DNA from: a virus
Taxonomy: Duplodnaviria; Heunggongvirae; Uroviricota; Caudoviricetes
Length of the DNA: 15,937 nucleotides
Strand: one strand, 5' to 3'
Virus record (IMG/VR): IMGVR_UViG_2737471841_000003
Positions 2-14,796 of the stretch are shown here, one piece after another; the first letter of the stretch is position 1; every line of letters begins with the position of its first letter. The translations under genes and the position numbers were made by a program. Under the pieces are notes generated by a model, which was not told the origin of the DNA, ran no database searches, and saw only the letters and a program-made list of their open reading frames with translations.

Positions 2-106
2 GGTAGCGAGGGTGATAAGCCTAAACTGGTGCGGAAACAGATCACACTGGGGGCAAGGCCGATTAACGTTGACCTTTCTAAAGAAGTTAAACGTTTTAAT
101 GAATAA
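2..106 (+). CDS. 3' end of an upstream gene (partial, 34 codons, ...KEVKRFNE*); possibly a tail assembly gene given what follows
   Basis: Frame 2 is open from the window edge to TAA at 104-106, 11 nt before the RBS of the next gene. No start is visible, so this rests on the open frame only. Confidence 0.3.
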   Translation, partial: GSEGDKPKLVRKQITLGARPINVDLSKEVKRFNE

Positions 107-117
107 CAGAGGGAAAA

Positions 118-2256
118 ATGAGCAACAAAATCGTAGGTGAGATCACAAACGTCATTGGCTTTCAGACTGACAAACGAAGTTATGATCAAGTCAAAGCTGA
201 CATGCGCAAGCTAACCACTACGTGGAACCAGTGCGCTGACAAGATGAAAACGCCAGCACTGGAAAAGATGAAACAGGTAAACCAACAGTTGAGAAAACAG
301 CGTGATCTCCTGAGAGAGATTAAAGCGGCCCAAAGCGGTGTAACGGGTGTTCCCCGTGTCGGTGGAGGTCCGGCAGGCCTGGCAAGACCAAAAACAGGCA
401 ATACCCGCCAGATTTATAACAGGGTGAGGAAACAACAGGCAGCGGAGGCAAGGAGATTAGCCAACGAGGCAAGACGCCAGGGAATATTACAGGCACAAGC
501 TACCAGAGACTCCGCAAGAATTACCTCCACCTTCCAGCCTTCCACAGTCGATAAATACAGAAAACAAATCAGCGACCTGCAAGCCCAGCGGCCCAACATG
601 CCAGCCGCTGAATTTAATGCCCGTATGGGCAAACTTATGATTGACATGAAGAATCATGAAAAATCATTAATTCACTGGGACAAGGTGTTATCCAAAACAT
701 CAAGCACGCTTAAAAGGTTTAACTCTGGACTGAATACAGCGATTAAAGGCCTGGGATTCGCTGCCACGGCGCTGGGTGGGATGATTTATAAATCTTTCCA
801 GGTATCAGCACAGAATAACCGCGCTTATTACGGCTTACTTGCTCAAAATTCAGATGACAAAGCTCTTACCAAAGACCAGATGAATTTTGTGGATCAGATG
901 TCCGATAAATACGGCCTTTCGCTAATGGACGCACAAATGGATTATATGAAGTTCAGAGGGGCGACTAAGGCAACGATGGACGAATCCACAGCAAGGGGAT
1001 TGTTTGAAGCTACTACCATCAAAGGTACAACTGCAGGTACTAACGCACAAGGGATGAGCTTAGCGTTTAAAGCCCTTGAACAGATGAGTTCTAAAGCCTC
1101 GGTTTCCATGGAAGAATTGCGGCAACAGCTCGGCGATCACATTCCGGGTGCGGTTCAGGATTTCTATAAAGCGTGGAAGGAAACCGAAAACAAATCAGAA
1201 GCGACCTATAAGGATTTCGAGAAAGCGGTCAAGGCAGGCAATGTTCAGTTAGAAAAACTTGCTCCCTCCCTGATTAAAATCTGGTCAGTGGCTGAGGGTA
1301 CTGAGGCATTTGCTCAGGCAATGCAACAGCCAGAGAAGGAACTCCAGAGACTGAAAAACACTATGGATAAGGCCGCGATCAGCTTCATGGGTGTAATTGA
1401 CCCCACAGACGGCGTTATTTCAGTATCTGAATCTCTGAGCTACCTGTTCCGTGATATTAAGGCGGCTTTCGGTGAGGCAGATTTTAAAGCAATGGGTGAA
1501 CTGGTAGGTAAATTCCTGTATGAACTGCAATACAGGTTCTGGAGATTCTACTACGACACCGGGGAACCTTTCATGCAGAAGCTGAACGGTTTGTTGGGTG
1601 AGACTACCGATGAAAAGGTAAACACCATTTTTAAAGTGCTAAGTGAGTTGGTAAAACTCAAAGTTGCCATTATGGGGCTATCTGCAGCGACAAATGCAGC
1701 TAAAGCTATCTATACACTTAAATCTGCAATTGAGGCTTTATCGGGCGCATCTACCACGGCAGCGTCCACCGCAGGTAACAGAGGGAACGGCGTAACCGAT
1801 CTACCTTTACCAAAAGGCAACAACCTCAAAAACAGTGCTCTGGTTGAAAATGTCTTACAGAACTATGATGAGGCACAAGCCAAATGGAGGCGGGAACATC
1901 CCGAGGGTAGCGTAGATGTTACGTCTGTAAGAAGCTGGATACCTAAACCGCTTTTAGACTGGTATGACACAGCCGCAGCCACACCGGGCAAATTACCAGA
2001 ATGGATGGGTGGTATCCCGTGGAGGCCAACACCTACCATCAACACCTCACAGGCGCTGCCTATGCCGCAGATGAGTCCTGCATTCATTCAACAGGCTGGC
2101 GTAAACCCTGCTCTGAATATCCACACAGAGGGTGAATTACGAGGCGATATCAACGTTAAGGTCGATATGATGAATCAGGATGTTTATGTGGACCAAAGGA
2201 TTGATGCTAAAATCGATGATTATGAAACGCGCCAACTAAACCTGTTAGCTAGGTAA
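118..2256 (+). CDS. 712-aa virion-type protein, possibly tail tape measure protein
   Basis: ATG at 118 preceded by GAGGG (108-112). Long uninterrupted ORF with a coiled-coil-like, Q/K/R-rich N-terminal third, a hydrophobic segment (GLGFAATALGGMIY) and a segment (SVSMEELRQQLGDHIPGAVQDF) that resembles tape-measure core regions from memory. Followed directly by an intrinsic terminator. The function is inferred, not searched. Confidence 0.45.
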   Translation: MSNKIVGEITNVIGFQTDKRSYDQVKADMRKLTTTWNQCADKMKTPALEKMKQVNQQLRKQRDLLREIKAAQSGVTGVPRVGGGPAGLARPKTGNTRQIYNRVRKQQAAEARRLANEARRQGILQAQATRDSARITSTFQPSTVDKYRKQISDLQAQRPNMPAAEFNARMGKLMIDMKNHEKSLIHWDKVLSKTSSTLKRFNSGLNTAIKGLGFAATALGGMIYKSFQVSAQNNRAYYGLLAQNSDDKALTKDQMNFVDQMSDKYGLSLMDAQMDYMKFRGATKATMDESTARGLFEATTIKGTTAGTNAQGMSLAFKALEQMSSKASVSMEELRQQLGDHIPGAVQDFYKAWKETENKSEATYKDFEKAVKAGNVQLEKLAPSLIKIWSVAEGTEAFAQAMQQPEKELQRLKNTMDKAAISFMGVIDPTDGVISVSESLSYLFRDIKAAFGEADFKAMGELVGKFLYELQYRFWRFYYDTGEPFMQKLNGLLGETTDEKVNTIFKVLSELVKLKVAIMGLSAATNAAKAIYTLKSAIEALSGASTTAASTAGNRGNGVTDLPLPKGNNLKNSALVENVLQNYDEAQAKWRREHPEGSVDVTSVRSWIPKPLLDWYDTAAATPGKLPEWMGGIPWRPTPTINTSQALPMPQMSPAFIQQAGVNPALNIHTEGELRGDINVKVDMMNQDVYVDQRIDAKIDDYETRQLNLLAR

Positions 2257-2261
2257 AAAAT

Positions 2262-2297
2262 AAGGCCCCTGGGATCGCTCCTCGGGGCCTTTTCTTT
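2262..2297. terminator. Bidirectional rho-independent terminator between convergent transcription units
   Basis: Stem AAGGCCCC (2262-2269) pairs with GGGGCCTT (2284-2291), followed by TTTTCTTT on the + strand. On the - strand the same stem is followed by a T-rich run (complement of the A6 tract at 2255-2260). It sits between the stop at 2256 (+) and the stop at 2314 (-). Confidence 0.6.
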
Positions 2298-2313
2298 ATG
2301 CCTGTATGTTTGC

Positions 2314-2463
2314 TCAGATGAACTGAGAAAGCTCGCGTACAAGCTGGATTTCCTGCCTTTCTTTCTGTTTTTCCTCTAACCACTTCCTACCCTCAGGTGT
2401 GCTGAGAAACTTGCGTACATGAATACGCTTGTTGTTTCTCTTTATGGCTTTCTGGTTTTTCAT
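2314..2463 (-). CDS. 49-aa highly basic small protein (MKNQKAIKRNNKRIHVRKFLSTPEGRKWLEEKQKERQEIQLVRELSQFI)
   Basis: Internal ATG at 2463-2461 of the track ORF 2314..2568 has a strong SD (AGGAGGT, complement of 2467-2473) at 3-nt spacing. The longer N-terminal extension in the track would overlap the promoter at 2540-2568. About 14 of 49 residues are K/R. Confidence 0.45.
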   Translation of the reverse strand: MKNQKAIKRNNKRIHVRKFLSTPEGRKWLEEKQKERQEIQLVRELSQFI

Positions 2464-2539
2464 GGTGTACCTCCTATTGCACTGGCTACGCCAGGTAGCC
2501 ACAGCTACCCCGCAGGGTGTTACCGCCGTTAACGTCCAT

Positions 2540-2568
2540 ATTATAGCCAATATCTGGCGTTTAGACAA
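2540..2568 (-). promoter_or_regulatory. sigma70-like promoter for the 49-aa gene (-35 TTGTCT, 17-bp spacer, -10 TATAAT)
   Basis: Reverse complement of 2540-2568 reads TTGTCT-N17-TATAAT. The implied start site is about 70 nt upstream of the ATG at 2463. Confidence 0.35.
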
Positions 2569-2900
2569 TAGCAGTCTTTTTGATGCCGTGATGGTGGTAT
2601 ATAAGCCTGTGGCATCAATTAATAGGTTTTTCTGATTGTCTTGCAGATCAGCTTTATCAGGTATCTGTTTATGTTCCGGTACGATGAGACCGTGCGGGCA
2701 TCTCTTAGTTTTGGCTTATAACTTATGTGCCTGGTAAGAGAGCAGAACCACCATCAATCGCCTGTTTATCGCCTTGGTTAGGGCAGGGCCGCATCAAGCC
2801 CAGTGATCTGTAAGGTACTCCACACCATATACGCTTCTTTTCTCGTAGAGGTCGCGTTAACCTCTGGGGTGTGTTTCCATTCGACAGGATAGCATGATCA

Positions 2901-3728
2901 TTATGGGTATACTACTCCTGCACTTTCCATTGCACTATCTACATAGGCTTTAGTTCTGGGAGACATGGGGGCATTACCCTTAGCTGCGTCACCCACATTC
3001 GACTCTTTAGACTTATCGTTCACAATGCCCTTATTCTTGGGTGGAGATTTCTTCGGATCAGAGAAAATTGTGGCTTCCACCATTTTAGTTTTGAAGGTCC
3101 TGAACTCCTGGAGAGTGATATCAAAGAGAATGGCCTCACCTTCGGTGTTCTTTTTGCTGGCACGCATCGAGGTAATGATAAAATTCTCATAGACATCTTC
3201 TTCTGTGACCAACGAGATTAATTGGCGTCTATCTATACATTCATTAACCGCCGCCAATGCCGCCGCCATCCTTCCACTTTCGCGGGGGGCTTCTGGATCT
3301 GTGTTACGGTCAATGTAGTTTGCCTTCCGGTACATCTGGGGAGAGGTAGTCACCCTGGCGGTGAAAGATATTTTGGTATCTTTGATCACGGCATGATCTG
3401 AAATAGTCACACCATCTTCTACAGCAAAATCTGTTTTCTCTATATCTCTGGTGACTTCATAATCGGTAATGCAGTCGAAGATAAGGCAAATGTTATCGGT
3501 GTAGTTAAATTCCTGTAAGCGATAATCCTGACCATGACCATTCAGGCCGGAAATTATCATGGTGAATTGTGCATCAGCCTGAGCTTTTTCTGCATTTAAG
3601 AATTTACCTTCATGCTCAACGCCCAATTCATCCTGGCTATAAATCCTTTCCCCAGTCTTCCAGTCCCTGCGACCTTCTGAACCATAGGAAACATCTTCGT
3701 TAATAACTACTTTATTGCTATTCATCAT
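2901..3728 (-). CDS. 275-aa acidic hypothetical protein; no domain recognised (could be a minor virion protein or an accessory gene)
   Basis: ATGATG start at 3728-3723 preceded by AAGGGGA. It begins 15 nt after the stop of the 53-aa HTH ORF, so the two are probably co-transcribed. TAA stop at 2903-2901. I see no Walker, HNH or PD-(D/E)xK motif. Confidence 0.7.
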   Translation of the reverse strand: MMNSNKVVINEDVSYGSEGRRDWKTGERIYSQDELGVEHEGKFLNAEKAQADAQFTMIISGLNGHGQDYRLQEFNYTDNICLIFDCITDYEVTRDIEKTDFAVEDGVTISDHAVIKDTKISFTARVTTSPQMYRKANYIDRNTDPEAPRESGRMAAALAAVNECIDRRQLISLVTEEDVYENFIITSMRASKKNTEGEAILFDITLQEFRTFKTKMVEATIFSDPKKSPPKNKGIVNDKSKESNVGDAAKGNAPMSPRTKAYVDSAMESAGVVYP

Positions 3729-3743
3729 TTTCCCCTTGCCTTG

Positions 3744-3905
3744 TCAGATAATGCCATAGTGTTTCAATGTTTCAATCAACCCATTACGTTTCAGGAAAGT
3801 TCGCACAGCCTCACGCGTAACTCCGGCTTTTCTGGCTATTTCCGAAAGGTTGATAAAATCAGTGTCTGTGTTTTCAATAACAACACGTTTGTTAATCAAT
3901 TTCAT
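3744..3905 (-). CDS. 53-aa helix-turn-helix DNA-binding protein (MKLINKRVVIENTDTDFINLSEIARKAGVTREAVRTFLKRNGLIETLKHYGII); absent from the ORF track (below its length cutoff)
   Basis: Translated codon by codon from the reverse strand: ATG at 3905-3903, SD AAGGAG (complement of 3914-3919) at 8-nt spacing, TGA at 3746-3744. The segment LSEIARKAGVTREAVRTFL is a typical HTH (excisionase/MerR-like or Nu1-like). Confidence 0.5.
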   Translation of the reverse strand: MKLINKRVVIENTDTDFINLSEIARKAGVTREAVRTFLKRNGLIETLKHYGII

Positions 3906-3940
3906 AAAATAAGCTCCTTGAAGAATACAGGTAAAAGGAT

Positions 3941-3978
3941 AATAAAAAAGGGAGGGAGGTTGTTAGCCTCTCCTCCCT
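3941..3978 (-). terminator. Intrinsic terminator or stabilising hairpin just downstream of the major capsid gene
   Basis: On the - strand: GGGAGGAGAGG, loop CTAACAA, CCTCCCTCCC, then CTTTTTTATT. It begins about 20 nt after the capsid stop at 3996. Phages commonly place a strong hairpin after the capsid gene. Confidence 0.5.
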
Positions 3979-3995
3979 TGTATTTAGCTATCAGA

Positions 3996-5024
3996 TTATG
4001 CCGCTTCGGTTAATTTCAGTTTAAAAATGAAATCTGGCCTACTATTGAGGTACGCGGTATGGGATTCACAGAAGATTTTACGCTGGGTGTTAGTCTGTTC
4101 TAACCAGTAAATTTCCCGTGCAGGTGCACCGCTCATTGCATAGCGTAAATTACGGGTTGCAGGTCCCACAATTTCACTCATGCAAGGCAGGAAAGTATTC
4201 TTGCGAACTGCCGGAACAGCGTAAGCATGACCTTCTTTCATGAATGAATCGTCACAGCTGATAATAGTGATAGCAATGCCATCTACCTGGAATACAGAAT
4301 AACCCGGCAGATGTTCACCATCAAATACCATGCTGGATTTAACAGTACCATTACCGAACATAATAGCGCGGCGAATGTCTTTATCATCGTAACGCAGGCG
4401 ATCATAAGTTGAGCTATCTACGAAGAGATAAACCCCACCAAATGAGTGAACTAAACCGCCCATTTGTTTTTTGACCAGTTTTACAATTCGTTCAAGCTCA
4501 CGGATGAGATCGCCACCCAGGTTTAACTCATCTTCGGACTGTTTAAACTTGCCACCCAGTTCCTCGACAATATCGATATCCCCACCTTTGAAATGAATCA
4601 CGTTATCAAAGAGAGCGCGCTGCATAGCTTTTTCTCTTGCAATTTCAAGGCGTTGTTTCATGCTCAACAGGTGTTCACCCGTCACATCGTCCAAGGTTTT
4701 CTCACGATTGGTGCCTGGTTTGCGGTGACCCTGGAAAGCGCTGGCGCTGATCTGAGATTCCAGTGCATAAGCAGGAACACGCAGCATTAAAGTTTGTGCT
4801 GTACCTGTTACGATGCTGCCATAATCACCCAGATCATAATCGCTTACAACTGGGGCAGCTGATTGGGTTGCTGCAATAACGTTATCGAACACGAAGGAGG
4901 TTGTACTGGTGTAAATTTTTTCATTAAACAAGCCCAGAGAAGTGATCAGCTGGTTTTCTAATGTTGGTTCTAGCATCACACATTCTGTGACATCTTTATA
5001 ATCGAATAATTGAAAGTCTGCCAT
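3996..5024 (-). CDS. Major capsid protein, lambda gpE family (342 aa)
   Basis: Size matches lambda E (341 aa). Recalled local similarity to lambda gpE: KNTFLP vs KNFLP, SGAPAREIYW vs GDPAREFTM, and a similar central hydrophobic block. ATG at 5024. It sits directly downstream of a small decoration-like gene, as in lambda D-E. Confidence 0.7.
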   Translation of the reverse strand: MADFQLFDYKDVTECVMLEPTLENQLITSLGLFNEKIYTSTTSFVFDNVIAATQSAAPVVSDYDLGDYGSIVTGTAQTLMLRVPAYALESQISASAFQGHRKPGTNREKTLDDVTGEHLLSMKQRLEIAREKAMQRALFDNVIHFKGGDIDIVEELGGKFKQSEDELNLGGDLIRELERIVKLVKKQMGGLVHSFGGVYLFVDSSTYDRLRYDDKDIRRAIMFGNGTVKSSMVFDGEHLPGYSVFQVDGIAITIISCDDSFMKEGHAYAVPAVRKNTFLPCMSEIVGPATRNLRYAMSGAPAREIYWLEQTNTQRKIFCESHTAYLNSRPDFIFKLKLTEAA

Positions 5025-5036
5025 TCCATCCCCCTA

Positions 5037-5360
5037 TTAAAGTGCTAATTTGACATGTTCGTTTAACAGGTGGGGAATAGCTTCCGGAGGATTAATTCCG
5101 AAAGAATTTAATACCACACCGATCCCGTGAACAATAACTAATTTGTCGCCTTTTTTAGCTGGTTCCAATACCACAAATAAAGCAGGCATCTCTTCTTCGT
5201 CAGCGTCGAATTTTGCCCCTTCTGCGGTAATAACATCGCCAGGGAATAAATCCTCAGTTAATGCCGTTTTCAGTTCCAGAGCTTTTTGTTCAAACTCGGG
5301 GTCCATGGAATAGGCGACCACATCTGCACGTGTTTTACGCGGCTTATCAGAAAATAACAT
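5037..5360 (-). CDS. Putative head decoration protein (107 aa), lambda gpD-like by position and size
   Basis: ATG at 5360 with GAGGT SD. Its stop is 12 nt upstream of the capsid gene start. 107 aa vs 110 aa for lambda D. Sequence similarity to gpD was not confidently recognised; the call is positional. Confidence 0.45.
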   Translation of the reverse strand: MLFSDKPRKTRADVVAYSMDPEFEQKALELKTALTEDLFPGDVITAEGAKFDADEEEMPALFVVLEPAKKGDKLVIVHGIGVVLNSFGINPPEAIPHLLNEHVKLAL

Positions 5361-5429
5361 CGTGTTACCTCATCTCTATCGCATTTATCAGATTTAATGT
5401 ATTAGAATCTCACCTCTGATACATTAATA

Positions 5430-5460
5430 AAGGCCACCCCTTCAGGTTGGGTAGCCTTGA
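5430..5460 (-). terminator. Terminator-like hairpin upstream of the head genes (- strand)
   Basis: On the - strand: GGCTACCC, loop AACCTGAA, GGGTGGCC (8-bp stem with one G.U), then TTTATTAATG. It lies about 70 nt upstream of the start at 5360. Confidence 0.3.
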
Positions 5461-5913
5461 TAATGGACCAGGTGCATAATCCAGAGCACGAAGATTATTC
5501 TCTGGTCATTCGTCTGTCGAGGTGATTTAAATGTGAAGTGAATCAGGCATTACTGCCTCAATCCATATAATAAAACCTCCCCCTAGCCCAGAGAGAGGCC
5601 TTATTATTTACTAGGATATATGAATGACTGATTTCAGTCTGGCAGATTCGCTAATAGCTCACCGCCTGGCACTTATTATCGCCTTCATTAGATCACCACA
5701 AATAATGTCGGCTATGGGAGAATGTAACCCGCTCCCAGTTGTTCACAGTACAACCAGACTTTTTACTGGAGAAAGTAATATCCACTCGTATAAATATTAC
5801 CTTCTTTAAAGGCCCTCGCTACGGTGGAAAGAAGAGGTAGCACAGAACAACCAGCAAAGACCTTTAAAGAAGTACGCCCAGCATCAAGGGGAAAATGATG
5901 AAAAAGCTCTGAG

Positions 5914-5942
5914 CTTCCGGGCGTTGACAAGTACAGGAGAAC
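5914..5942 (+). promoter_or_regulatory. Near-consensus sigma70 promoter (TTGACA, 17-bp spacer, TATTAT; TG immediately upstream of the -10)
   Basis: TTGACA at 5914-5919, TATTAT at 5937-5942, TG at 5935-5936. Confidence 0.45.
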
Positions 5943-6018
5943 ACTGTATTATCCAATAATCGGTGAGATGTAGGTGAGATAACTCGAAAGGTGTAACCAT
6001 GAAAGTATCTACATCATA

Positions 6019-6038
6019 GTATTATGATAACATAATAC
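6019..6038. promoter_or_regulatory. Inverted repeat (GTATTATG ATAA CATAATAC), candidate operator or RNA hairpin in the leader
   Basis: 8-bp arms separated by 4 bp, downstream of the 5914 promoter and followed 16 nt later by a T7 run (6055-6061). Confidence 0.3.
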
Positions 6039-6095
6039 TTGCCGTTTGTCAATCCTTTTTTCAAAGAAATTTAAAAAATTTTTCTCTCCGCCTCT

Positions 6096-6142
6096 TTTCT
6101 CGATCAAACAATTGAAAAAACTATTGACTGAGGCGTTAGAAT
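6096..6142 (+). promoter_or_regulatory. Promoter for the homing-endonuclease-like gene: 13-bp upstream box TTTCTCGATCAAA, then -35 TTGAAA and -10 TAGAAT (19-bp spacer)
   Basis: The box at 6096-6108 is identical to 14751-14763, which sits in the same position relative to the consensus promoter at 14768. -35 at 6112-6117, -10 at 6137-6142. The spacer is longer than optimal. Confidence 0.35.
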
Positions 6143-6182
6143 GTGATACGGTTCACCACAAATGGTAAGTGGAGGGTGCGAT

Positions 6183-7013
6183 ATGAAAGAGAGAAAACAG
6201 GCTTTAGCTAAAACAACAGAGCAGTTCATCGCTGAGGCAAGGAAAGTGCATGGTGATAAGTACGATTATTCGAAAGTTGAATACGTGAATATGCGCACTG
6301 AGGTTTGTATCATTTGCCCAATACATGGGGAGTTCACACAAAGACCAGAGAACCATCTTCGCGGTAACAGAGGAAAGGGGTGTGGTTGCCCTATTTGTAA
6401 ACCTTGGAGAAAACGCCTGACACGAGAAGAGTTCGAAAGGAGGGTAAAAGAGGTACACGGTGATAACCTGGATGTTTCACAGTTCGATTATAAAAACGTT
6501 CACACAGAGGGTATTGTTAAGTGCAACAGGTGCGGCATGACGTTCTCGATACAGGCACAAGCGATTATCCTTAGAAATTCTGATGGTAGTCTTCTAGGCG
6601 GTTGCCCTGTGTGTGACCATCTACACAGAGACGCGGAATATGTTTATTTGGCGCTGGATGATCCACACTTTCCGACGAGATTTAAGATCGGGGTAACAAG
6701 CAACCCACAGGACAGATTGATAACTTTGAAGTGTAGAACACCTTTCAGGGTGTTTATGAAATGTTGTTTCAAAGTAGGAAAAGTGAAGGCGCGGAGGCTG
6801 GAGTACTTCCTGCACAACTTCTACAACTTCTGCAATTGTGGTTATGAATCAAGAAAGGACTTTCAGGGTGCAACAGAGTGGTTTTATTACCTGCAAAGTA
6901 AAGTAGGGGTGAAGAGGGTGCTCAAGATGTTAGTAAAACTGGTAAACGCCAGGAGCTACAACCGCCACTACATAAAGCATAAAAAGCCAACGTTTAAACG
7001 CACTTTGTTTTAA
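6183..7013 (+). CDS. Homing-endonuclease-like protein: two N-terminal Zn-ribbon repeats plus a C-terminal T5orf172 (GIY-YIG-like) domain
   Basis: Start moved to ATG 6183 (GGAGGG SD at 6171-6176); the track start at 6162 lacks an SD. Two tandem repeats of HGDKYDYSKVEY...C.ICP.HGEF.Q.P..HL.G.GC..C, then YVYLALDDPHFPTRFKIGVTSNPQDRL...EYFLH...ATEWFYY, which matches the T5orf172 pattern as I remember it. Confidence 0.65.
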   Translation: MKERKQALAKTTEQFIAEARKVHGDKYDYSKVEYVNMRTEVCIICPIHGEFTQRPENHLRGNRGKGCGCPICKPWRKRLTREEFERRVKEVHGDNLDVSQFDYKNVHTEGIVKCNRCGMTFSIQAQAIILRNSDGSLLGGCPVCDHLHRDAEYVYLALDDPHFPTRFKIGVTSNPQDRLITLKCRTPFRVFMKCCFKVGKVKARRLEYFLHNFYNFCNCGYESRKDFQGATEWFYYLQSKVGVKRVLKMLVKLVNARSYNRHYIKHKKPTFKRTLF

Positions 7014-7064
7014 TGGTGGGCCAGGGATGGTTATTGACTCTCAATCATTATTTTAAAAAAGATG

Positions 7065-7093
7065 TTGACTACCACACGGTAAAAGTGTATAAA
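7065..7093 (+). promoter_or_regulatory. Near-consensus sigma70 promoter (TTGACT, 17-bp spacer, TATAAA)
   Basis: TTGACT at 7065-7070, TATAAA at 7088-7093, about 40 nt upstream of the 7131 ORF. Confidence 0.5.
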
Positions 7094-7130
7094 GGGCCTA
7101 AAGAAAGAGAAGTGGCAAAGGAGGTAAAAA

Positions 7131-7250
7131 ATGTTCAGGCTGATGGTGAATGTCCTGGCGATAATCTTCGGGTTAGTGCTCTTTCTGATGGCCTGGAGCG
7201 TTATCTTTGAAGTAGTGGATATAGTGATGGCGATGTTAATGATTAAATAA
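7131..7250 (+). CDS. 39-aa hydrophobic single-TM peptide (MFRLMVNVLAIIFGLVLFLMAWSVIFEVVDIVMAMLMIK); not in the ORF track
   Basis: ATG at 7131 preceded by AGGAGG (7119-7124) at 6-nt spacing and by the 7065 promoter. TAA at 7248-7250. The overlapping track ORF 7013..7210 in another frame has no SD and covers the promoter. Confidence 0.4.
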   Translation: MFRLMVNVLAIIFGLVLFLMAWSVIFEVVDIVMAMLMIK

Positions 7251-7266
7251 CGCAGGAGGCAAGATC

Positions 7267-7329
7267 ATGAAACATTGGGAAGTGATTGCACTGTTCATCA
7301 TAATGTTTGTGATGTGCATCGAGTTTTAA
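7267..7329 (+). CDS. 20-aa hydrophobic peptide (MKHWEVIALFIIMFVMCIEF); not in the ORF track
   Basis: ATG at 7267 preceded by AGGAGG (7254-7259) at 7-nt spacing. TAA at 7327-7329. It is very short, so this is tentative. Confidence 0.3.
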   Translation: MKHWEVIALFIIMFVMCIEF

Positions 7330-7364
7330 CATTAGTCGATCAATATATTGAAGAGGTGACTACT

Positions 7365-7916
7365 ATGAAAACTATCAAAACTATCGCCGCTGTGGTCCTG
7401 GCAATGTTTGTGGGCAATGCTAATGCCGCCCTGGTGATCACAGACCAAGACATTGAAGACCACATGGAGACAATGGAGGTTTACTACCAGGCTGAGGATA
7501 TTGATTGTGAGATCTGGAGCAAGATGTTCACGAAAGGGGTAATTGAAGGTAACGACAAGTTCAGGCACGGTATCCGTGTTCACAAAGACCTCACAATTGT
7601 TGCCATGAAAGCTAAATCGGAGTTCTACAACAAATACGCAGGGGAGGTTGTCAAATCTGGCGCAAGTAAAGGATACAGCAAGGAGAGAGTAGATCAGATT
7701 AGAGATGTTTACATCGGTGCTTACATCGGTGCGGCCGAGATGAAATCTCGCGTAAACAGCAAGTTCGGCAAAGCCGCTGATCTTAACTCTGTAGCTAAAA
7801 AGAGAGCAGAAGCCGATCATTGGTTCAATTTCTGTGTGAAAGTGAAAGAAGAATATCCGGTCGTATTGTTCAACGAGTGGTTAGCTATAGCACAGCTGGC
7901 AGAAGATGATTTTTAA
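7365..7916 (+). CDS. Secreted (periplasmic) protein with Sec signal peptide, 183 aa
   Basis: Start moved to ATG 7365 (GAGGTG SD at 7353-7358). N-terminus MKTIKTIAAVVLAMFVGNANA/AL has n-, h- and c-regions with a predicted cleavage after ANA. There is no Cys at +1, so it is not a lipoprotein. The track start at 7275 lacks an SD. Confidence 0.6.
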   Translation: MKTIKTIAAVVLAMFVGNANAALVITDQDIEDHMETMEVYYQAEDIDCEIWSKMFTKGVIEGNDKFRHGIRVHKDLTIVAMKAKSEFYNKYAGEVVKSGASKGYSKERVDQIRDVYIGAYIGAAEMKSRVNSKFGKAADLNSVAKKRAEADHWFNFCVKVKEEYPVVLFNEWLAIAQLAEDDF

Positions 7917-7946
7917 CCGGGGACGATCATCGACTCAAAAAAGTGA

Positions 7947-7975
7947 TTGACAACGGAGGTGAGATCCGGTATAGT
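7947..7975 (+). promoter_or_regulatory. Near-consensus sigma70 promoter (TTGACA, 17-bp spacer, TATAGT)
   Basis: TTGACA at 7947-7952, TATAGT at 7970-7975, upstream of the 8011 gene. Confidence 0.5.
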
Positions 7976-8010
7976 TCACCACATAGAGAAGAGATACGGA
8001 GGGCAGCAAG

Positions 8011-8391
8011 ATGAAAACTTTCAATTGGGTTAAACCACAGATGTTACGTCGCGCCAATAACCACGGTGAGGGTGTACGCCACCACAACGACGCACCTGCA
8101 CCGGACATGAAGAAGGCACGCAAAGTGATCAATCTTCGTCAGGACGCGGCTATCGCTCGCAACCTGAAAGCAGAAGCGAAAAACCGTAACCCGTTGGAGG
8201 CAATTCTTGTTGCCCTGGTCAATGACCATGCAGCTCATTTCCGTCATTTCAATGGCATCAACCAGTACCAGATGGCAGAAGCCAACCGTAAAGAAGAAGA
8301 GCGGATCCTGGCTGGACTGGTACACGTTGAGATTGAACCTGAACCGGAACCGGAGGAAATTCATTGGGACCTCTGGAAAATGGCAGCTTAG
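8011..8391 (+). CDS. Hypothetical early protein (126 aa)
   Basis: ATG at 8011 with GGAGGG SD at 7998-8003. Contains a PEPEPE stretch. Function unknown. Confidence 0.6.
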   Translation: MKTFNWVKPQMLRRANNHGEGVRHHNDAPAPDMKKARKVINLRQDAAIARNLKAEAKNRNPLEAILVALVNDHAAHFRHFNGINQYQMAEANRKEEERILAGLVHVEIEPEPEPEEIHWDLWKMAA

Positions 8392-8452
8392 TCCACAGAG
8401 TGGATTTCACAGAGTGAAACCTGATAACAGGCAGCTTGAGGAGGCTTGAATC

Positions 8453-8917
8453 ATGAAAATTTTCAGTATTGAACATTACGAAGACAAAATTGAAGAGCTG
8501 GAAAGACTGGCTGAGATTGCAGATTATCGCGCGGGGTACGCCGCTGGACTTGCGGAAGTTCGGGAAAAAATACTTAAAAAATTCCACAGCTTGTACTATG
8601 TCCTGGCGGTTGCTGAGCAAGAACAAGATGAGGAGCTGTACGAGTACACGTCGTGCCGTATCCTGGAAATGGCGGGTGTGTACGGCATAATCAAGGCGGG
8701 AGAGGTGATCTCAGACGAAGAGATTGCGAAGAGACTTCGTAAACGCATCGAAAACGCATACTTTGAAGCGATCTACTATACGAAAAAAAGCACGGAGCTG
8801 TATAAACGCATAACTGCGGCGACGAAAGTTGTCACTCAGCTACAGAAAGTAAAAATCTTCAAACTGAAAGCGGCGTTGGCTATCGGTAAAATGTTTTTCC
8901 CACATCGTTTCAATTGA
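8453..8917 (+). CDS. Hypothetical early protein (154 aa)
   Basis: ATG at 8453 with GAGGAGG SD. Function unknown. Confidence 0.65.
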   Translation: MKIFSIEHYEDKIEELERLAEIADYRAGYAAGLAEVREKILKKFHSLYYVLAVAEQEQDEELYEYTSCRILEMAGVYGIIKAGEVISDEEIAKRLRKRIENAYFEAIYYTKKSTELYKRITAATKVVTQLQKVKIFKLKAALAIGKMFFPHRFN

Positions 8918-8945
8918 TTAAATAATAAACAGAGGAGACTGTAAA

Positions 8946-9314
8946 ATGAGTTACGAAAACTGCTGTTTCTGTGTGGAAGATGTGCCGCCAGTCATTCTGG
9001 AGCGTCACGGTGTGAAAACGTATCTGCCGATGATTCTGATGTTCGAGCATTTCCTCGATCATGGTGATGACGGTTTTTATGTCGGTTATAGTGAGGACGA
9101 TTTCCCTCCTGACTTGCTGAAAGAGTTGGAAGAAAAAGGCATCATTGAAGTATTTGATCAAACTGACGTGGATAATGGTGTGTGGGTAAGGGTTAAAAAA
9201 GAGATTCACATTGAACGTCTGCAACTTGCGGCAGAAGTCCAGGGCCTTGAGATTCTCGACATGAGCGACTACCTCAAACAACTGGACGAAGCATACAAGG
9301 CGCACGATTTATAG
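8946..9314 (+). CDS. Hypothetical acidic early protein (122 aa)
   Basis: ATG at 8946 with AGAGGAG SD. Tightly spaced after the preceding gene. D/E-rich. Confidence 0.65.
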   Translation: MSYENCCFCVEDVPPVILERHGVKTYLPMILMFEHFLDHGDDGFYVGYSEDDFPPDLLKELEEKGIIEVFDQTDVDNGVWVRVKKEIHIERLQLAAEVQGLEILDMSDYLKQLDEAYKAHDL

Positions 9315-9327
9315 GGGAGACACACAG

Positions 9328-9642
9328 ATGAATAAAGACGTGATTGAACTGCTGGAACAACTGAACAAGGCCGCTGAGTATATCCTGGCCGATGTGAAGG
9401 TCCTGGATGGTCACTTGTTGCTGGCGAGCAAGTCAGCCACACAGGAAGGAAGGGACAGGGCTGTCGAGCTATACGTTCAGGATGCTGCACATCTTATAAA
9501 CAAATGGTTGCCTGATGTGGGTGTCGAGGTGACAAACTACGCAGAAGCAACGGCGGCGCATATGGTGCTGATGCATCTGGCAATTGATAGTTACCGTAGT
9601 AACATGTTAGCAATGCTGGACTTCATGAAGGCTAAAAATTAA
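9328..9642 (+). CDS. Hypothetical early protein (104 aa)
   Basis: ATG at 9328 with GGGGAG SD, 14 nt after the preceding stop. Confidence 0.6.
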   Translation: MNKDVIELLEQLNKAAEYILADVKVLDGHLLLASKSATQEGRDRAVELYVQDAAHLINKWLPDVGVEVTNYAEATAAHMVLMHLAIDSYRSNMLAMLDFMKAKN

Positions 9643-9704
9643 TCGTACTCGATCAATAGTTCAATTTTACTTATGAATTGTGGAGAGCATAAGAGGTTCC
9701 AACA

Positions 9705-10226
9705 ATGAAAACTGAACTCAAACATGAAATTCTAAACGCTTTTAACAACCGTATCGAGGCCATAGTGGATGGTCAACCTGGCGGGATGTTCTTTGTGGAG
9801 GAAGCCATAGAGCTGGCTAAAGCGGAGGAAGCAGTAGAGAGAATACTCAACATCCCACACAGTGATCAATGTCTGGTAGATAGGTATCTATACGGCTTCA
9901 TGCGACTGGTCCGGCATTATTGCGAGGTGCCTGTGGACCATCATTTTATCAGTATGATCTACGCCGATGCTTCTGACTTCTTCTACAGGCTAGATCACAG
10001 AATAGACGAAATGATTGTTGTGTTACTGGCGGGATCTGATGACGAAAGGTTGTTAGACGTAGAACCTGATGAACTGGTGAAAAAACTTATTGAGCGTGTT
10101 TATCGGGAAATGGAGGCAGACGTAGAGGCAGCGGGTGAAGATGGAAGAATGCGGCAGAAGCTGGAGGCCGCGTATAAGGCCAGGCCGAAGGATGATGATG
10201 ACGATACGGAAGGAATCCCATTCTGA
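9705..10226 (+). CDS. Acidic early protein (173 aa) with an SSB-like C-terminal tail (...KDDDDDTEGIPF)
   Basis: ATG at 9705 with AAGAGG SD. Strongly acidic overall. The C-terminal codons were checked directly: GAC GAT ACG GAA GGA ATC CCA TTC TGA. Confidence 0.65.
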   Translation: MKTELKHEILNAFNNRIEAIVDGQPGGMFFVEEAIELAKAEEAVERILNIPHSDQCLVDRYLYGFMRLVRHYCEVPVDHHFISMIYADASDFFYRLDHRIDEMIVVLLAGSDDERLLDVEPDELVKKLIERVYREMEADVEAAGEDGRMRQKLEAAYKARPKDDDDDTEGIPF

Positions 10227-10277
10227 GCTATTGGGGCCGTCACTGGCCCCGCTTACCAACTAATCGGAGAGCATAAG

Positions 10278-10553
10278 ATGAAACTCAAACTTATCGAAAG
10301 TCAGCTGAACATGTTCTTTAAGATGGCAAGTGTGATCATTGTGGACGGTGAACAATTCGCGGGTCCAGTGCCACACAGTAGCATCGTTTTAGATATCAAC
10401 AGAGAGGCCCTTAAATGCGTTGTGGAGGCCGTATTTAATCAGGATGTAAAAGTGTATAGGCTTATGGAGTTTGAGCTACAGGAGCGCGATTTACGCATCA
10501 TAGAGCGACATTTGAAGGCTGAGCAAGCCGCAGAAGAGTTGAACCTGGATTAA
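10278..10553 (+). CDS. Hypothetical early protein (91 aa)
   Basis: ATG at 10278 with GGAGAG SD. Confidence 0.6.
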   Translation: MKLKLIESQLNMFFKMASVIIVDGEQFAGPVPHSSIVLDINREALKCVVEAVFNQDVKVYRLMEFELQERDLRIIERHLKAEQAAEELNLD

Positions 10554-10662
10554 GGGGGTGTATACCCCGAACATTGTGAGAGGTGTGAGATGGCTAAACA
10601 AATACTTTCAATTGTTCCACTGTGGAAACTGAATCATAAATTCGTAAAAAAATGGTAAACCA

Positions 10663-11013
10663 GTGCTGTTTACATACCTTGATGCGCTGGTCTTCGGTTA
10701 CATAGCACGAGCTAACTATGGGGGCAAGTGGTTCAACTTCGTAATGAAGAATGCAATCTACGACCTCTATACAAGCGAGAAGGAGATAACGCACAGCGTT
10801 GAAAAACTGGTTATGTTAAGACTTATCAAAATAATGCCGGGTGAAAGTTTGCCTAACTGCCACATGGTGGCGCAAGTCACTCATAAGGAATTGGAAGACA
10901 CGATCAATAGGTATATCGAGCGTGAAAGAATGTCTTGCGCGATGATCGACCTTGATGAAGAGAGGAGGAAACAATTCCAGGGTAATGATGAATGGGAAGA
11001 TTGTCCTTTTTAA
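10663..11013 (+). CDS. Hypothetical protein (116 aa from a GTG start; start uncertain), C-terminus ...NDEWEDCPF
   Basis: The ORF is open from 10648. The first start codon is GTG at 10663 with no clear SD; an alternative ATG at 10744 has a weak SD. It is preceded by a 22-codon uORF (10590-10658, SD GAGAGGTG) that ends in an A7 run. Confidence 0.45.
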   Translation: MLFTYLDALVFGYIARANYGGKWFNFVMKNAIYDLYTSEKEITHSVEKLVMLRLIKIMPGESLPNCHMVAQVTHKELEDTINRYIERERMSCAMIDLDEERRKQFQGNDEWEDCPF

Positions 11014-11030
11014 TGTAGGGGGGTGGCAAA

Positions 11031-12008
11031 ATGACTACAGAAGTGATGATCCAGATTTTCGAATCTGATTTAAATAATGATGGTAACTTAGTCCCGGTTG
11101 TTAACGCCCGTGAGTTTTACGAAGCGCTTGGGATGCGAAAAGATTATGGAAATTGGATCAGGTGGCATCTTCGGAAATTTGAAAAAAATCGGGACTTTAT
11201 TACTTTTATCGATAAGTCGGGAGAACATCCGCGTCATAACTATTTTATCACTTTGGACACTGCAAAGCACATATGCAGGGTGAGCCAACGCCAGGAAGGT
11301 GAGCAGTTGCTACAGTATTTAATTAAAGTTGAAAAAAGATACCGTTTAGTACTGGACCCACAACCACAGATTCCTGTTTACACACAGTCACAGATTCCTG
11401 TTTACACACAGTCACAGATTCCTGTTTACACACAGACGGAACCTGAACCGTTGCCAGGAACACCGGAACATTTTGCCCGTGCATTTACGGAGGCTTACCA
11501 ACAGATATACGGGGCAACAGATCAGCAGCCAGTCATTGAGCACAATACGGAACCTGTGGTTCCTTGTTGGGGAGCTGGGTCTAATCAGAGCCTCGAGGTC
11601 CAGGATGTGCAGGAAGTACGACCGCCAGCACCTGTGCTGGGGTATTACAATCCTTGCCCGGACAACAAAATCAACATGAAAGGCTTAAAAGAATACCTGA
11701 GCAATGAACGCCTGATCAAGTACCTCATTAAAAAATTCAACATTGAAAATGAGATTTATGATTATGGTTACATAAATGTGAAAGGGAAAGCTGAGTCGGA
11801 GATTGTGTACGATAAACGTAAAACGCTGGCGATCTTACATGCCGCTTACGCTTTGAGTACTAGAGTAAACGCCACACAGAGAGAGTTTATGGGGATAGTA
11901 TTCACGATGTACAGGGTGTTAAGAGACACACATTATGATAAGGACATGTACGATACAGCTTACACTCTTCTTGAAGAGGATATAAACAAATTGTATAAAA
12001 TTGATTGA
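11031..12008 (+). CDS. Antirepressor-like protein with N-terminal AntA-type domain (325 aa)
   Basis: ATG at 11031 with a G-rich SD. The N-terminus (VVNAREFYEALGMRKDYGNWIRWHLRKFEKNRDFITF...YFITLDTAKHI) matches the AntA/AntB antirepressor N-terminal pattern as I remember it. Contains a triplicated QIPVYTQS repeat. Confidence 0.65.
   Translation: MTTEVMIQIFESDLNNDGNLVPVVNAREFYEALGMRKDYGNWIRWHLRKFEKNRDFITFIDKSGEHPRHNYFITLDTAKHICRVSQRQEGEQLLQYLIKVEKRYRLVLDPQPQIPVYTQSQIPVYTQSQIPVYTQTEPEPLPGTPEHFARAFTEAYQQIYGATDQQPVIEHNTEPVVPCWGAGSNQSLEVQDVQEVRPPAPVLGYYNPCPDNKINMKGLKEYLSNERLIKYLIKKFNIENEIYDYGYINVKGKAESEIVYDKRKTLAILHAAYALSTRVNATQREFMGIVFTMYRVLRDTHYDKDMYDTAYTLLEEDINKLYKID
11367..11438 (+). repeat. 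Three tandem 24-bp direct repeats (CAGATTCCTGTTTACACACAGTCA) inside the antirepressor-like gene
   Basis: Units at 11367-11390, 11391-11414 and 11415-11438; the third differs in its last bases. In frame, encoding QIPVYTQS x3. Confidence 0.9.
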
Positions 12009-12086
12009 GCATCTATACTCGATCACAACTCAACAATAAAGACGGAGAGTCGAGAGCATGACTCTCCTCAACCCCGGAGGCCCAAC

Positions 12087-12362
12087 ATGTATTACTACGA
12101 TTGCAAAGACCCGATTCTGGCTGAACGTAACCGCCTGGCTAATGAGATCGCCCAACAGGCAAAAGAGAAAAAAGCCCAACAGCGTATGGAGCTTGGAAAA
12201 GAGATTTACAGACTCCACACAGACGGCTACACAATGGAATGTATAGCCAAAAAGCTGGGAATGTCTGAACCAACAGCCTACAGACTGCAACGGGCATATC
12301 TGAAAGCTAACCCGCACCTCAAAGTGTTCTCGGGGCGTGTTGCGGCACGGGGTCGTAGTTAA
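12087..12362 (+). CDS. Small HTH DNA-binding protein (91 aa), resolvase/sigma-region-4-like HTH
   Basis: ATG at 12087 with GGAGG SD (12076-12080). The segment GYTMECIAKKLGMSEPTAYRLQRAY is HTH-like. Its stop lies 10 nt before the first operator-like palindrome. Confidence 0.6.
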   Translation: MYYYDCKDPILAERNRLANEIAQQAKEKKAQQRMELGKEIYRLHTDGYTMECIAKKLGMSEPTAYRLQRAYLKANPHLKVFSGRVAARGRS

Positions 12363-14750: not shown

Positions 14751-14796
14751 TTTCTCGATCAAAGGTATTGACAAATGAGAGTAAAGGTGTTATACT
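14751..14796 (+). promoter_or_regulatory. Second tandem near-consensus promoter (13-bp box TTTCTCGATCAAA, then TTGACA, 17-bp spacer, TATACT)
   Basis: Box at 14751-14763, -35 at 14768-14773, -10 at 14791-14796. It lies 80 bp downstream of the 14688 promoter. Confidence 0.6.

What the first reader, a model, noticed from the sequence alone, without database searches (positions are those of the whole stretch)
6096..6117. Identical 13-bp box TTTCTCGATCAAA placed 3-4 bp upstream of the -35 in two separate promoters
The same 13-mer is at 6096-6108 (before TTGAAA at 6112) and at 14751-14763 (before TTGACA at 14768). An identical box at the same position relative to the -35 element suggests a shared activator or repressor site, or a specialised UP element, coordinating the homing-endonuclease/early operon with the replication operon. 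A related core (TACTCGATCA) also occurs just after stop codons at 9649-9658 and 12016-12025.
Basis: seen in the sequence. Interest (0 to 1): 0.4.

Follow-up and report, generated by a model that had tools for sequence, protein, structure and literature searches.

The report
Conserved CGATCA box upstream of promoters

Summary
The 13-mer TTTCTCGATCAAA is exact at 6096-6108 and 14751-14763. On its own this is not significant: a 16-kb window yields about three exact 13-mer repeats by chance.

The signal is the core CGATCA.
- It is the most over-represented 8-mer context in the window.
- All six intergenic copies point in the direction of transcription.
- It is kept in 12 related ~15-kb elements from E. 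coli, Shigella and metagenomes, apart from one G-to-A change at one site in one relative.

Comparison corrects the anatomy at site 1. The conserved -35 is TTGACT (6124-6129). The TTGAAA at 6112 is part of an A-tract that resembles a proximal UP subsite.

The recurring module is CGATCA-N7-RAAAAA-N4-TTGACW-N17/18-(-10). CGATCA starts exactly 23 bp before the -35 in 32 promoter instances at four non-orthologous positions. At the replication promoter it starts 12 bp before the -35, one helical turn closer. Promoter-less copies sit 7 nt after stop codons.

Best reading: an operator for an unidentified sequence-specific regulator that acts beside RNA polymerase. Activation versus repression is unresolved. 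Rivals are a stoperator-like roadblock, a hitch-hiking cassette junction, IHF, Dam/SeqA, and an RNA signal. Interest is moderate.

The parts
6096..6108 (+). Box 1, the 13-mer TTTCTCGATCAAA, with core CGATCA at 6101-6106. This is about -63..-51 (core -58..-53) relative to the conserved promoter P6124.
   Evidence: Exact match. The core is kept in 11 of 12 relatives; L067 has CAATCA. Flanks vary.
6114..6119 (+). A-tract GAAAAA at -45..-40, resembling a proximal UP subsite.
   Evidence: RAAAAA is conserved in all class-A promoters at a fixed distance from both CGATCA and the -35. Proximal UP consensus AAAAAARNR is taken from PMC4132738.
6124..6152 (+). Promoter P6124: -35 TTGACT (6124-6129), 17-bp spacer, TG (6144-6145), -10 TACGGT (6147-6152). 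It drives the T5orf172 gene starting at 6183.
   Evidence: TTGAC is invariant in all relatives, with TATGGT, TATATA or TATAAA at 17-18 bp. The consensus scan missed it because TACGGT matches only 3 of 6.
7924..7975 (+). Second full module: CGATCA (7924-7929), N7, AAAAAA (7937-7942), GTGA, TTGACA (7947-7952), 17-bp spacer, TATAGT (7970-7975). It begins 7 nt after the stop codon at 7914-7916.
   Evidence: Orthologues in L019, L023-L026 and L066-L068 keep CGATCA while N7 varies.
14751..14763 (+). Box 2, the 13-mer TTTCTCGATCAAA, with core CGATCA at 14756-14761. This is -52..-40 (core -47..-42) relative to P14768.
   Evidence: Exact match. Conserved in L020, L024, L026, L067 and L068. In L067 homology to the left ends next to the box.
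14768..14796 (+). Promoter P14768: TTGACA, 17-bp spacer, TG-extended TATACT. It drives a roughly 120-nt structured leader, then the 79-aa and Rep-like genes.
7337..7342 (+). Promoter-less CGATCA copy, 7 nt after the stop codon of a 20-codon ORF and 22 nt before the ATG at 7365. Only the upstream half of the module is present, fused to the ribosome-binding site.
   Evidence: The orthologous site in L067 carries the full module: CGATCA-N17-TTGACA-17-TATAGT.
9646..9655 (+). Promoter-less copy TACTCGATCA, with CGATCA at 9650-9655, 7 nt after the stop codon at 9640-9642. It starts a conserved linker, CGATCAATAGTTYAA..., that lies between variable gene cassettes.
12014..12025 (+). Promoter-less copy TATACTCGATCA, 5 nt after the AntA-like stop codon (11 nt to CGATCA itself). 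It is followed by a hairpin and the HTH_23 gene.
   Evidence: Upstream flanks are unrelated among relatives, and homology begins at TAYACTCGATCA.

Best explanation
The site is asymmetric, so the regulator probably binds as a monomer. It has not been identified.

The operator forms the 5' end of a promoter module reused along the rightward operon of a ~15.9-kb phage-like element.
[quoted passage not shown] That A-tract abuts a consensus -35.
- At the replication-operon promoter it sits at -47..-42, directly upstream of the -35, which is 11 bp (one helical turn) closer.

In both layouts a bound protein would lie on the same DNA face and next to an RNA polymerase contact surface: alpha-CTD in the first, sigma region 4 in the second. 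I infer that it sets the activity of these promoters jointly and so couples the accessory operon to the replication operon. I lean towards recruitment or activation at promoters whose -10 elements are imperfect.

Shown: sequence, enrichment, strand bias, conservation, spacing.
Inferred: protein binding, contact with RNA polymerase, the sign of regulation, and the identity of the factor.
For: - Enrichment and strand bias. CTCGATCA occurs 5 times on + against 0.16-0.36 expected. Five CGATCA copies lie in 733 intergenic bases against 0.18 expected. All six intergenic copies are co-oriented with transcription.
- Footprint. In 17 distinct promoter sequences from 10 genomes, all six CGATCA columns carry 2 bits, the same as the -35. 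The N7 and N4 spacers vary in sequence; with all 13 genomes there are 20 different N7 strings.
- Spacing. Among 64 sigma-70-like promoter matches on the sense strand of 13 family genomes, CGATCA starts exactly 23 bp before the -35 in 32 and exactly 12 bp before it in 6. The other 26 have no copy within 60 bp, and no other distance occurs. The 23-bp class covers four non-orthologous positions.
- The exact composite pattern occurs twice in the window and never in 200 shuffles.
- Box-less consensus promoters in the same element (5924 +, 6052 -, 14688 +, 15684 -) show that the box marks a subset of promoters.
- The A-tract matches the proximal UP subsite AAAAAARNR, and class I geometry places alpha-CTD between an activator and the -35 (PMC4132738).
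- Several -10 elements are sub-optimal: TACGGT, TATGGT, TATATA.
Against: - No binding protein is identified. No repressor- or activator-type family was found among the element's proteins. There are only weak HTH hits: a 91-aa HTH_23 protein, a 53-aa ORF, and a Rep-like winged HTH.
- The -35 elements are consensus, so activation may be unnecessary.
- Three conserved copies have no recognisable sigma-70 promoter downstream. A pure activator model does not explain them.
- The fixed spacing may partly reflect shared ancestry of duplicated modules, because few indels are expected over 11 variable positions.
- The 11-bp offset at P14768 rests on a single paralogue.
- Significance of the core was assessed after the motif had been seen.
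Confidence: 0.5

Rival explanations
1. Stoperator-like or P1 C1-like global repressor site. A monomeric repressor binds the asymmetric sites. It silences the strong promoters by blocking alpha-CTD docking or sigma region 4, and it blocks read-through elongation at the copies placed just after stop codons. This keeps the element quiet while it is carried as a plasmid-like replicon.
For: - The site is asymmetric, always in one orientation relative to transcription, and short-intergenic. Copies lie 7 nt after stop codons at three non-orthologous junction types.
- Promoter-less copies are conserved.
- The promoters are near consensus and would need silencing.
- Both boxes lie inside the transcribed region of an upstream box-less consensus promoter, P5924 and P14688.
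- These features parallel L5 stoperators (PMC9283540).
Against: - At class-A promoters the site lies upstream of the core promoter (-58..-53) and does not overlap the -35 or -10.
- There are only six intergenic copies per genome.
- No repressor homologue was found.
- Exact 1-bp positioning relative to the -35 is not a property of stoperators.
Confidence: 0.2
2. No factor of its own. CGATCA is the hitch-hiking 5' edge of a duplicated promoter or cassette-junction module. It is kept uniform by recombination and gene conversion between modules, which also shuffle gene cassettes, as T4 promoter/stem-loop cassettes do.
For: - Homology between relatives starts or ends at the modules, while the genes on either side differ. 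Depending on the relative, a T5orf172 gene, a resolvase gene or another gene follows P6124, and different genes lie on each side of the 9650 and 12020 linkers.
- L068 has two modules 26 bp apart where the window has a 183-aa gene.
- L023 lacks the 173-aa gene between two GGAGAGCATAAG repeats.
Against: - Inside the modules, N7 and N4 have diverged almost completely between paralogues while CGATCA has not. Gene conversion would homogenise the spacers as well.
- The core survives where the promoter half has been lost.
Confidence: 0.1
3. Host IHF site. GATCA(A/G)-N4-TT(A/G) approximates the IHF core WATCARNNNNTTR, so the box would bend DNA between the divergent promoters P6052 and P6124.
For: - Site 1 reads GATCAAACAATTG and fits every position except the first W.
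- The L067 variant CAATCAGATGGTTG fits at every position.
- 12 of 35 distinct non-coding instances fit ATCAR-N4-TTR.
Against: - Box 2, the 7924-type sites and the 12020-type sites do not fit.
- IHF prefers A or T where the invariant G stands, and it has no need for the invariant C. This point rests on general knowledge of IHF.
- The TT preceding the A-tract is equally explained by UP-like composition.
Confidence: 0.08
4. Dam-methylation or SeqA sensor. The GATC inside every box would couple promoter activity to the methylation state of the DNA, and so to replication or infection.
For: Every copy contains GATC. The element replicates autonomously in a Dam-positive host.
Against: - The flanking C and A are as invariant as GATC itself, which Dam and SeqA do not require.
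- GATC is neither depleted nor enriched overall, with 74 copies against 79 expected.
- There is no conserved second GATC in phase nearby.
- One orthologue has lost the GATC (CAATCA in L067) while its promoter remains intact.
Confidence: 0.07
5. RNA-level signal. CGAUCA in read-through transcripts, placed 7 nt after stop codons, would serve as a processing site, a coupling signal or an sRNA-pairing site.
For: - Strict strand bias.
- The recurring layout of stop codon, 7 nt, then CGATCA.
- UGAUCG occurs twice on the + strand of the ORF-poor region.
Against: - Exact spacing to the -35 is a DNA-level property.
- Boxes 1 and 2 have no upstream ORF.
- No Rfam family matches, and no conserved structure surrounds the motif.
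Confidence: 0.05

Closest known systems
UP element of sigma-70 promoters (rrnB P1 type; proximal AAAAAARNR and distal NNAWWWWWTTTTN subsites; PMC4132738)
   Same: It lies at -60..-40 at a fixed distance from the -35. The conserved RAAAAA tract at -45..-40 matches the proximal subsite.
   Different: The box itself sits where the distal subsite would be, but it is CG-containing and not A/T-rich. At P14768 it replaces the A-tract. Copies also exist without any promoter.
Class I activator sites, such as CRP at -61.5 or the P2 Ogr / P4 delta sites centred near -55 on helper and satellite late promoters (the Ogr/delta details are from memory)
   Same: It lies upstream of the -35 at a fixed, helically phased position centred at -55.5, with room for alpha-CTD between the site and the -35. 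The setting is also a satellite-like element.
   Different: There is no dyad symmetry (neither TGT-N12-ACA nor TGTGA-N6-TCACA). The -35 elements are consensus rather than absent. The factor is unknown.
Operators and stoperators of cluster A mycobacteriophages (L5 gp71; PMC9283540)
   Same: An asymmetric short site, in one orientation relative to transcription, found at promoters and in short intergenic gaps after stop codons.
   Different: The sequence and host differ. There are six copies rather than more than twenty. The promoter copies lie upstream of the core promoter and do not overlap it. No homologous repressor was found.
21-22-nt asymmetric intergenic repeats of T1-like coliphages (aaATAGCACnnnTTGnTAAAA; PMC11447400, PMC4319613)
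   Same: A phage-specific, intergenic, transcription-oriented repeat in an E. coli phage. It combines an upstream conserved block with a TTG-containing part, and its function is unresolved; stoperator, enhancer and UP-like roles have been discussed.
   Different: The consensus is unrelated. Here a clear -35/-10 follows at fixed spacing in the class-A copies.
T4 promoter/stem-loop (PeSL) regulatory cassettes that mediate modular shuffling (from memory)
   Same: Repeated regulatory modules flank variable small genes and coincide with the end points of cassette gain and loss.
   Different: There is no stem-loop component. The conserved hexamer lies outside the core promoter.

Membership tests
UP element | Proximal subsite AAAAAARNR just upstream of the -35 | tested here: met
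GAAAAAACT at 6114-6122 and AAAAAAGTG at 7937-7945. The tract is conserved in 28 distinct promoter sequences.
UP element | The element itself is A/T-rich (distal subsite NNAWWWWWTTTTN at about -57..-47) | tested here: not met
   CGATCA occupies -58..-53 with an invariant C and G. At P14768 the box replaces the A-tract.
UP element | Bound by alpha-CTD and stimulates transcription without any added factor | not testable with these tools
   Needs in vitro transcription with wild-type RNA polymerase and with polymerase lacking alpha-CTD.
Stoperator / operator system (cluster A mycobacteriophages) | Asymmetric site with one orientation relative to transcription | tested here: met
   All six intergenic copies in the window are on the sense strand, and the relatives show the same.
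Stoperator / operator system (cluster A mycobacteriophages) | Many copies in short intergenic spaces across the genome | tested here: inconclusive
   Six intergenic copies in 15.9 kb occupy 5 of the 7 rightward-operon gaps of at least 60 nt. None occurs in the leftward structural operon.
Stoperator / operator system (cluster A mycobacteriophages) | The operator copy overlaps the core of the early promoter | tested here: not met
   The core lies at -58..-53 or -47..-42, upstream of the -35.
Stoperator / operator system (cluster A mycobacteriophages) | A cognate monomeric immunity repressor is encoded by the element | tested here: inconclusive
   No repressor family was found. Only weak HTH hits appeared: the HTH_23 91-aa protein, a 53-aa ORF and a Rep-like protein.
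IHF binding site | Core WATCARNNNNTTR | tested here: not met
   Site 1 fits except at W, and 12 of 35 distinct instances fit ATCAR-N4-TTR. Box 2, the 7924-type and the 12020-type sites do not fit, and the W position is an invariant G.
Dam / SeqA-controlled site | GATC is the only sequence requirement, and SeqA needs phased GATC pairs | tested here: inconclusive
   GATC is present in every copy, but the flanking C and A are equally invariant. There is no conserved paired GATC, and one orthologue lost its GATC.
Class I activator-dependent promoter | Site upstream of the -35 at a fixed, helically phased distance | tested here: met
   The distance is 23 bp in 32 instances and 12 bp in 6, with no other distance observed.
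Class I activator-dependent promoter | The core promoter is too weak to work without the activator | tested here: inconclusive
   The -35 is consensus (TTGACA or TTGACT). The -10 ranges from TACGGT to TATAGT.
T1-like phage intergenic repeats | Consensus aaATAGCACnnnTTGnTAAAA | tested here: not met
   The sequence is different. Only the general behaviour is shared.

The most novel reading that the evidence does not exclude
The CGATCA sites form the dispersed, oriented operator set of a single unknown regulator. That regulator may be encoded by the element, or be a host factor the element has co-opted. It would act in two ways: at promoters by contact with alpha-CTD or sigma region 4, and at cassette junctions as an oriented roadblock. 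Together these would form the master switch of a previously undescribed satellite-like parasite of rV5-like (Vequintavirinae) coliphages, analogous to stoperators but built around an upstream promoter position.
Probability: 0.15. Interest if true: 0.65.

Novelty: new member of a known kind. Interest (0 to 1): 0.35.

Why it matters
If the box is an operator, it defines the regulon joining the accessory (early) genes to replication in a ~15-kb E. coli/Shigella element. This element has no match in INPHARED, PLSDB, IMG/VR or the complete E. coli genomes. Its tail genes resemble those of rV5-like phages.

The motif gives a ready handle for finding the regulator: a 30-bp probe, or a single-site promoter mutant. 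It also adds an enterobacterial case to the small set of asymmetric, transcription-oriented phage repeats whose function remains open in T1-like phages. As a motif alone it is an ordinary kind of phage cis-element. The element that carries it is the more unusual object.

Tried and rejected
- 13-mer significance. The exact 13-mer repeat is within chance expectation.
- Searches for relatives by DNA or by the capsid protein found nothing. Collections tried: INPHARED, PLSDB (which gave only a 100-bp antA match), complete E. coli genomes, IMG/VR (all pattern hits were single chance matches), JGI metagenomes (chance hits) and GTDB representative genomes. Relatives came only from exact-protein look-ups.
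- TTGAAA (6112) as the -35. Its only possible -10 partner is TAGAAT at a 19-bp spacer. That partner exists only in the window and is absent from all relatives.
- Class-B copies as sigma-70 promoters. With either the 23-bp or the 12-bp template, no -35/-10 pair is conserved, and the implied start sites would fall inside or after the ribosome-binding sites.
- Other promoter or site types, checked by eye against consensus sequences recalled from memory. None fits: sigma-28 (-10 GCCGATAA), T7-like RNA polymerase promoters, rrn/lambda boxA, Hin/Gin crossover sites, the DnaA-ATP box AGATCT, and an antisense promoter using TTGATC.
- Same module in a candidate helper phage. In 89 kb of rV5-like phage V18, CGATCA is not enriched and no promoter carries it.
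- Rfam and tRNA scans found nothing relevant.
- HTH_23 as the factor. Its model is a long helix plus an HTH, with only weak fold matches to DeoR/NarL/RcsB-type domains. The two GGGACAAAATGTCC palindromes directly downstream of its gene are a likelier target, so it stays an untested candidate.

Full report
**Observation**

TTTCTCGATCAAA occurs exactly twice, at 6096-6108 and 14751-14763 on the + strand. TTGAAA follows 3 bp after the first copy, and TTGACA follows 4 bp after the second.

The identity alone is weak evidence. 22 of 200 shuffles gave two or more matches at up to 2 mismatches. Random Markov-1 windows of this size contain about three exact 13-mer direct repeats, and this window has six dispersed ones.

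The core is what stands out.
- CTCGATCA occurs five times, all on the + strand, against 0.16-0.36 expected. It is the top-ranked 8-mer in the window.
- CGATCA occurs 13 times on + and 3 times on -, against about 3.9 expected per strand.
- Five copies lie in the 733 intergenic bases of the rightward gene block, against 0.18 expected.
- They occupy five of the seven gaps of 60 nt or more in that block.
- GATC as such is neither enriched nor depleted, at 74 copies against 79 expected.

**What the window is**

The window is a whole contig, JUDJ01000049.1 of an E. coli assembly. An independent assembly of another run gives a circular permutation of it. It is therefore a ~15.9-kb circular or terminally redundant element.

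Its genes are:
- a tape-measure protein, a Dit-like tail-tube initiator and a major capsid protein;
- a rightward block of small ORFs, starting with a T5orf172/endonuclease-like gene and ending with an AntA-like gene and a 91-aa HTH_23 gene;
- a 2.6-kb ORF-poor region with iterons;
- a 79-aa gene and a Rep-like gene.

It has no match in INPHARED, PLSDB, IMG/VR, JGI metagenomes, GTDB representatives or complete E. coli genomes. Twelve relatives of 14-16 kb, or fragments of them, were recovered through exact-protein look-ups. They come from E. coli, Shigella sonnei and metagenomes.

**Comparative anatomy of site 1**

All relatives align across 5900-6130 (the three added later are). Conservation forms islands:
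- TC(T/A)CGATCA;
- a variable stretch;
- TTGAAAAA;
- three to four variable bases;
- TTGAC(A/T).

After that, homology ends, because different genes follow: T5orf172 in the window, a resolvase in most relatives, and others elsewhere.

A TG-extended -10 lies 17-18 bp after TTGAC. It is TACGGT in the window and TATGGT, TATATA or TATAAA in relatives. The TTGAAA beside the box has no conserved -10 partner.

So the promoter is TTGACT (6124-6129), a 17-bp spacer, then TACGGT (6147-6152).

**A repeated module**

The same layout recurs at other, non-orthologous positions: CGATCA-N7-RAAAAA-N4-TTGACW-N17/18-(-10). It appears at 7924-7975 in the window, downstream of the resolvase gene in relatives, and in L067 at the orthologue of window site 7337.

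In 17 distinct sequences from 10 genomes, every CGATCA column is invariant, like TTGAC and the A-tract. N7 and N4 vary freely in sequence but never in length. With 13 genomes there are 28 distinct sequences and 20 different N7 strings. The only core variant is CAATCA, at site 1 of L067.

Among 64 promoter-like matches on the sense strand of the 13 genomes:
- CGATCA starts exactly 23 bp before the -35 in 32;
- it starts exactly 12 bp before the -35 in 6, all of them the replication promoter;
- it is absent within 60 bp in 26;
- no other distance occurs.

The composite pattern occurs twice in the window and never in 200 shuffles.

**Site 2**

Box 2 and its promoter, TTGACA-17-TATACT, are conserved in L020, L024, L026, L067 and L068. 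In L067 the similarity to the left ends right beside the box.

The core lies at -47..-42 here, 11 bp closer to the -35 than in the other promoters. [quoted passage not shown] It abuts the -35 directly, with no A-tract in between.

The two 13-mers share the extension YTCTCGATCA. The final AA of box 1 is peculiar to the window, because relatives read GA, TA or GG there. The full 13-mer identity is therefore partly accidental.

**Promoter-less copies**

Copies at 7337, 9650 and 12020 are conserved in relatives but have no conserved -35/-10 downstream.
- Site 7337 is the upstream half of the module fused to a ribosome-binding site. Its orthologue in L067 carries the full promoter.
- Sites 9650 and 12020 begin conserved linkers between cassettes whose flanking genes differ among relatives.

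CGATCA lies exactly 7 nt after the upstream stop codon at the 7337, 7924 and 9650 junction types, including one relative that uses TGA.

**Interpretation**

The features are:
- an invariant asymmetric hexamer;
- co-orientation with transcription;
- position fixed to the base pair relative to the -35 in several paralogous promoters;
- a location next to an A-tract matching the proximal UP subsite AAAAAARNR, or next to the -35 itself. The consensus and class I geometry are from PMC4132738.

These are best explained by a binding site for a sequence-specific protein that works beside RNA polymerase. It would co-regulate the rightward accessory operon and the replication operon. Other consensus promoters in the element lack the box, so it marks a subset.

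I lean towards recruitment or activation, because of the geometry and the imperfect -10 elements. The sign is open, however. The consensus -35 elements, the plasmid-like carriage and the promoter-less copies after stop codons fit a stoperator-like repressor or roadblock (PMC9283540).

Other readings:
- IHF fits site 1 and some other copies, but not box 2 or the 7924 and 12020 types. It would not hold the C and G invariant.
- Dam or SeqA would not need the invariant flanks.
- Pure hitch-hiking through recombination is contradicted by spacers that have diverged around an invariant core, although the modules clearly coincide with cassette gain and loss.
- An RNA signal does not explain the exact spacing to the -35.

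**The factor**

No candidate is convincing. The 91-aa HTH_23 protein models as a long helix plus an HTH (pLDDT 83), with only weak fold matches to DeoR/NarL/RcsB-type domains. Two palindromes directly downstream of its gene look like better targets for it.

The tail-tube initiator is 49% identical to proteins of rV5-like phages. One 60-kb metagenome contig joins the element to rV5-like DNA. In 89 kb of rV5-like phage V18, however, CGATCA is not enriched and no promoter carries it. A helper-encoded factor with its own sites in the helper genome is therefore not supported.

**Comparison with known systems**

The closest analogues are:
- UP elements, which match the A-tract only;
- class I activator sites;
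- L5 stoperators;
- the unexplained 21-nt oriented intergenic repeats of T1-like coliphages (PMC11447400 and PMC4319613).

The box meets the defining sequence features of none of them. It is a new family-specific motif of a familiar general kind.

**Verdict**

The feature is real and conserved. Interest is moderate. The element carrying the motif deserves attention in its own right.

Noticed in passing
window 1-15937 (whole contig); L017, L019-L027, L066-L068: The window is a complete ~15.9-kb circularly permuted element from E. coli. It carries its own capsid, tape-measure, tail-tube-initiator and Rep-like genes, but no recognisable terminase or portal gene. It has no match in the phage, plasmid, IMG/VR or complete E. 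coli collections. Its Dit-like protein is 49% identical to proteins of rV5-like (Vequintavirinae) phages, and the 60-kb metagenome contig L020 joins it to rV5-like DNA. It looks like an undescribed satellite-like element.
   Followed up: partly
window 5924-6052: Two face-to-face consensus promoters: TTGACA-17-TATTAT on + at 5924-5952 and TTGACA-17-TATCAT on - at 6052-6024. Their predicted start sites are about 58 bp apart, and both are conserved in all relatives. This is a convergent-promoter switch layout between the structural operon and the rightward operon.
   Followed up: partly
window 12363-14968: A 2.6-kb ORF-poor region. It contains two GGGACAAAATGTCC palindromes (12372, 12395), a run of ten C (12410-12419), four 22-bp palindromic iterons (12489-12573) and tandem consensus promoters at 14688 and 14768. 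Blocks of it are conserved in relatives. In L020 the element is interrupted between about 12804 and 12907.
   Followed up: partly
window 14803-14935: The transcript predicted from P14768 begins with a structured leader of about 120 nt (z-score -3.1). The leader ends in GGGGGC-9 nt-GCCCCC followed by a T-run, just before the 79-aa gene. This suggests an attenuator or a small RNA in front of the replication genes. Relatives carry insertions in this leader.
   Followed up: partly
window 9682-9694 and 10266-10278; L023, L068: The ribosome-binding-site region GGAGAGCATAAGA is repeated. L023 lacks the 173-aa gene exactly between such repeats. L068 has two CGATCA modules 26 bp apart where the window has the 183-aa gene. 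Short regulatory repeats therefore coincide with the end points of cassette deletion and shuffling.
   Followed up: partly
window 11365-11435: A perfect 24-bp x 3 in-frame tandem repeat (QIPVYTQS x 3) inside the AntA-like gene.
   Followed up: no
window 12046-12069; orthologous sites in L023-L026, L067, L068: A hairpin, GGAGAGTC-8 nt-GACTCTCC, lies between the 12020 box and the HTH_23 ribosome-binding site. Some relatives have hairpins of different sequence at the same place. There is no T-run on the sense strand.
   Followed up: no
window 7267-7329: A conserved 20-codon hydrophobic mini-ORF (MKHWEVIALFIIMFVMCIEF) ends 7 nt before the 7337 box. It is present in all relatives examined.
   Followed up: no
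P6124 downstream gene: window 6183-7013 versus L019-L027, L066-L068: The gene directly downstream of the box-1 promoter is exchangeable. It is T5orf172/endonuclease-like in the window, a 188-214-aa serine recombinase (Resolvase family) in most relatives, and something else in L019 and L024. In some relatives T5orf172 genes sit instead just before the HTH_23 gene.
   Followed up: partly
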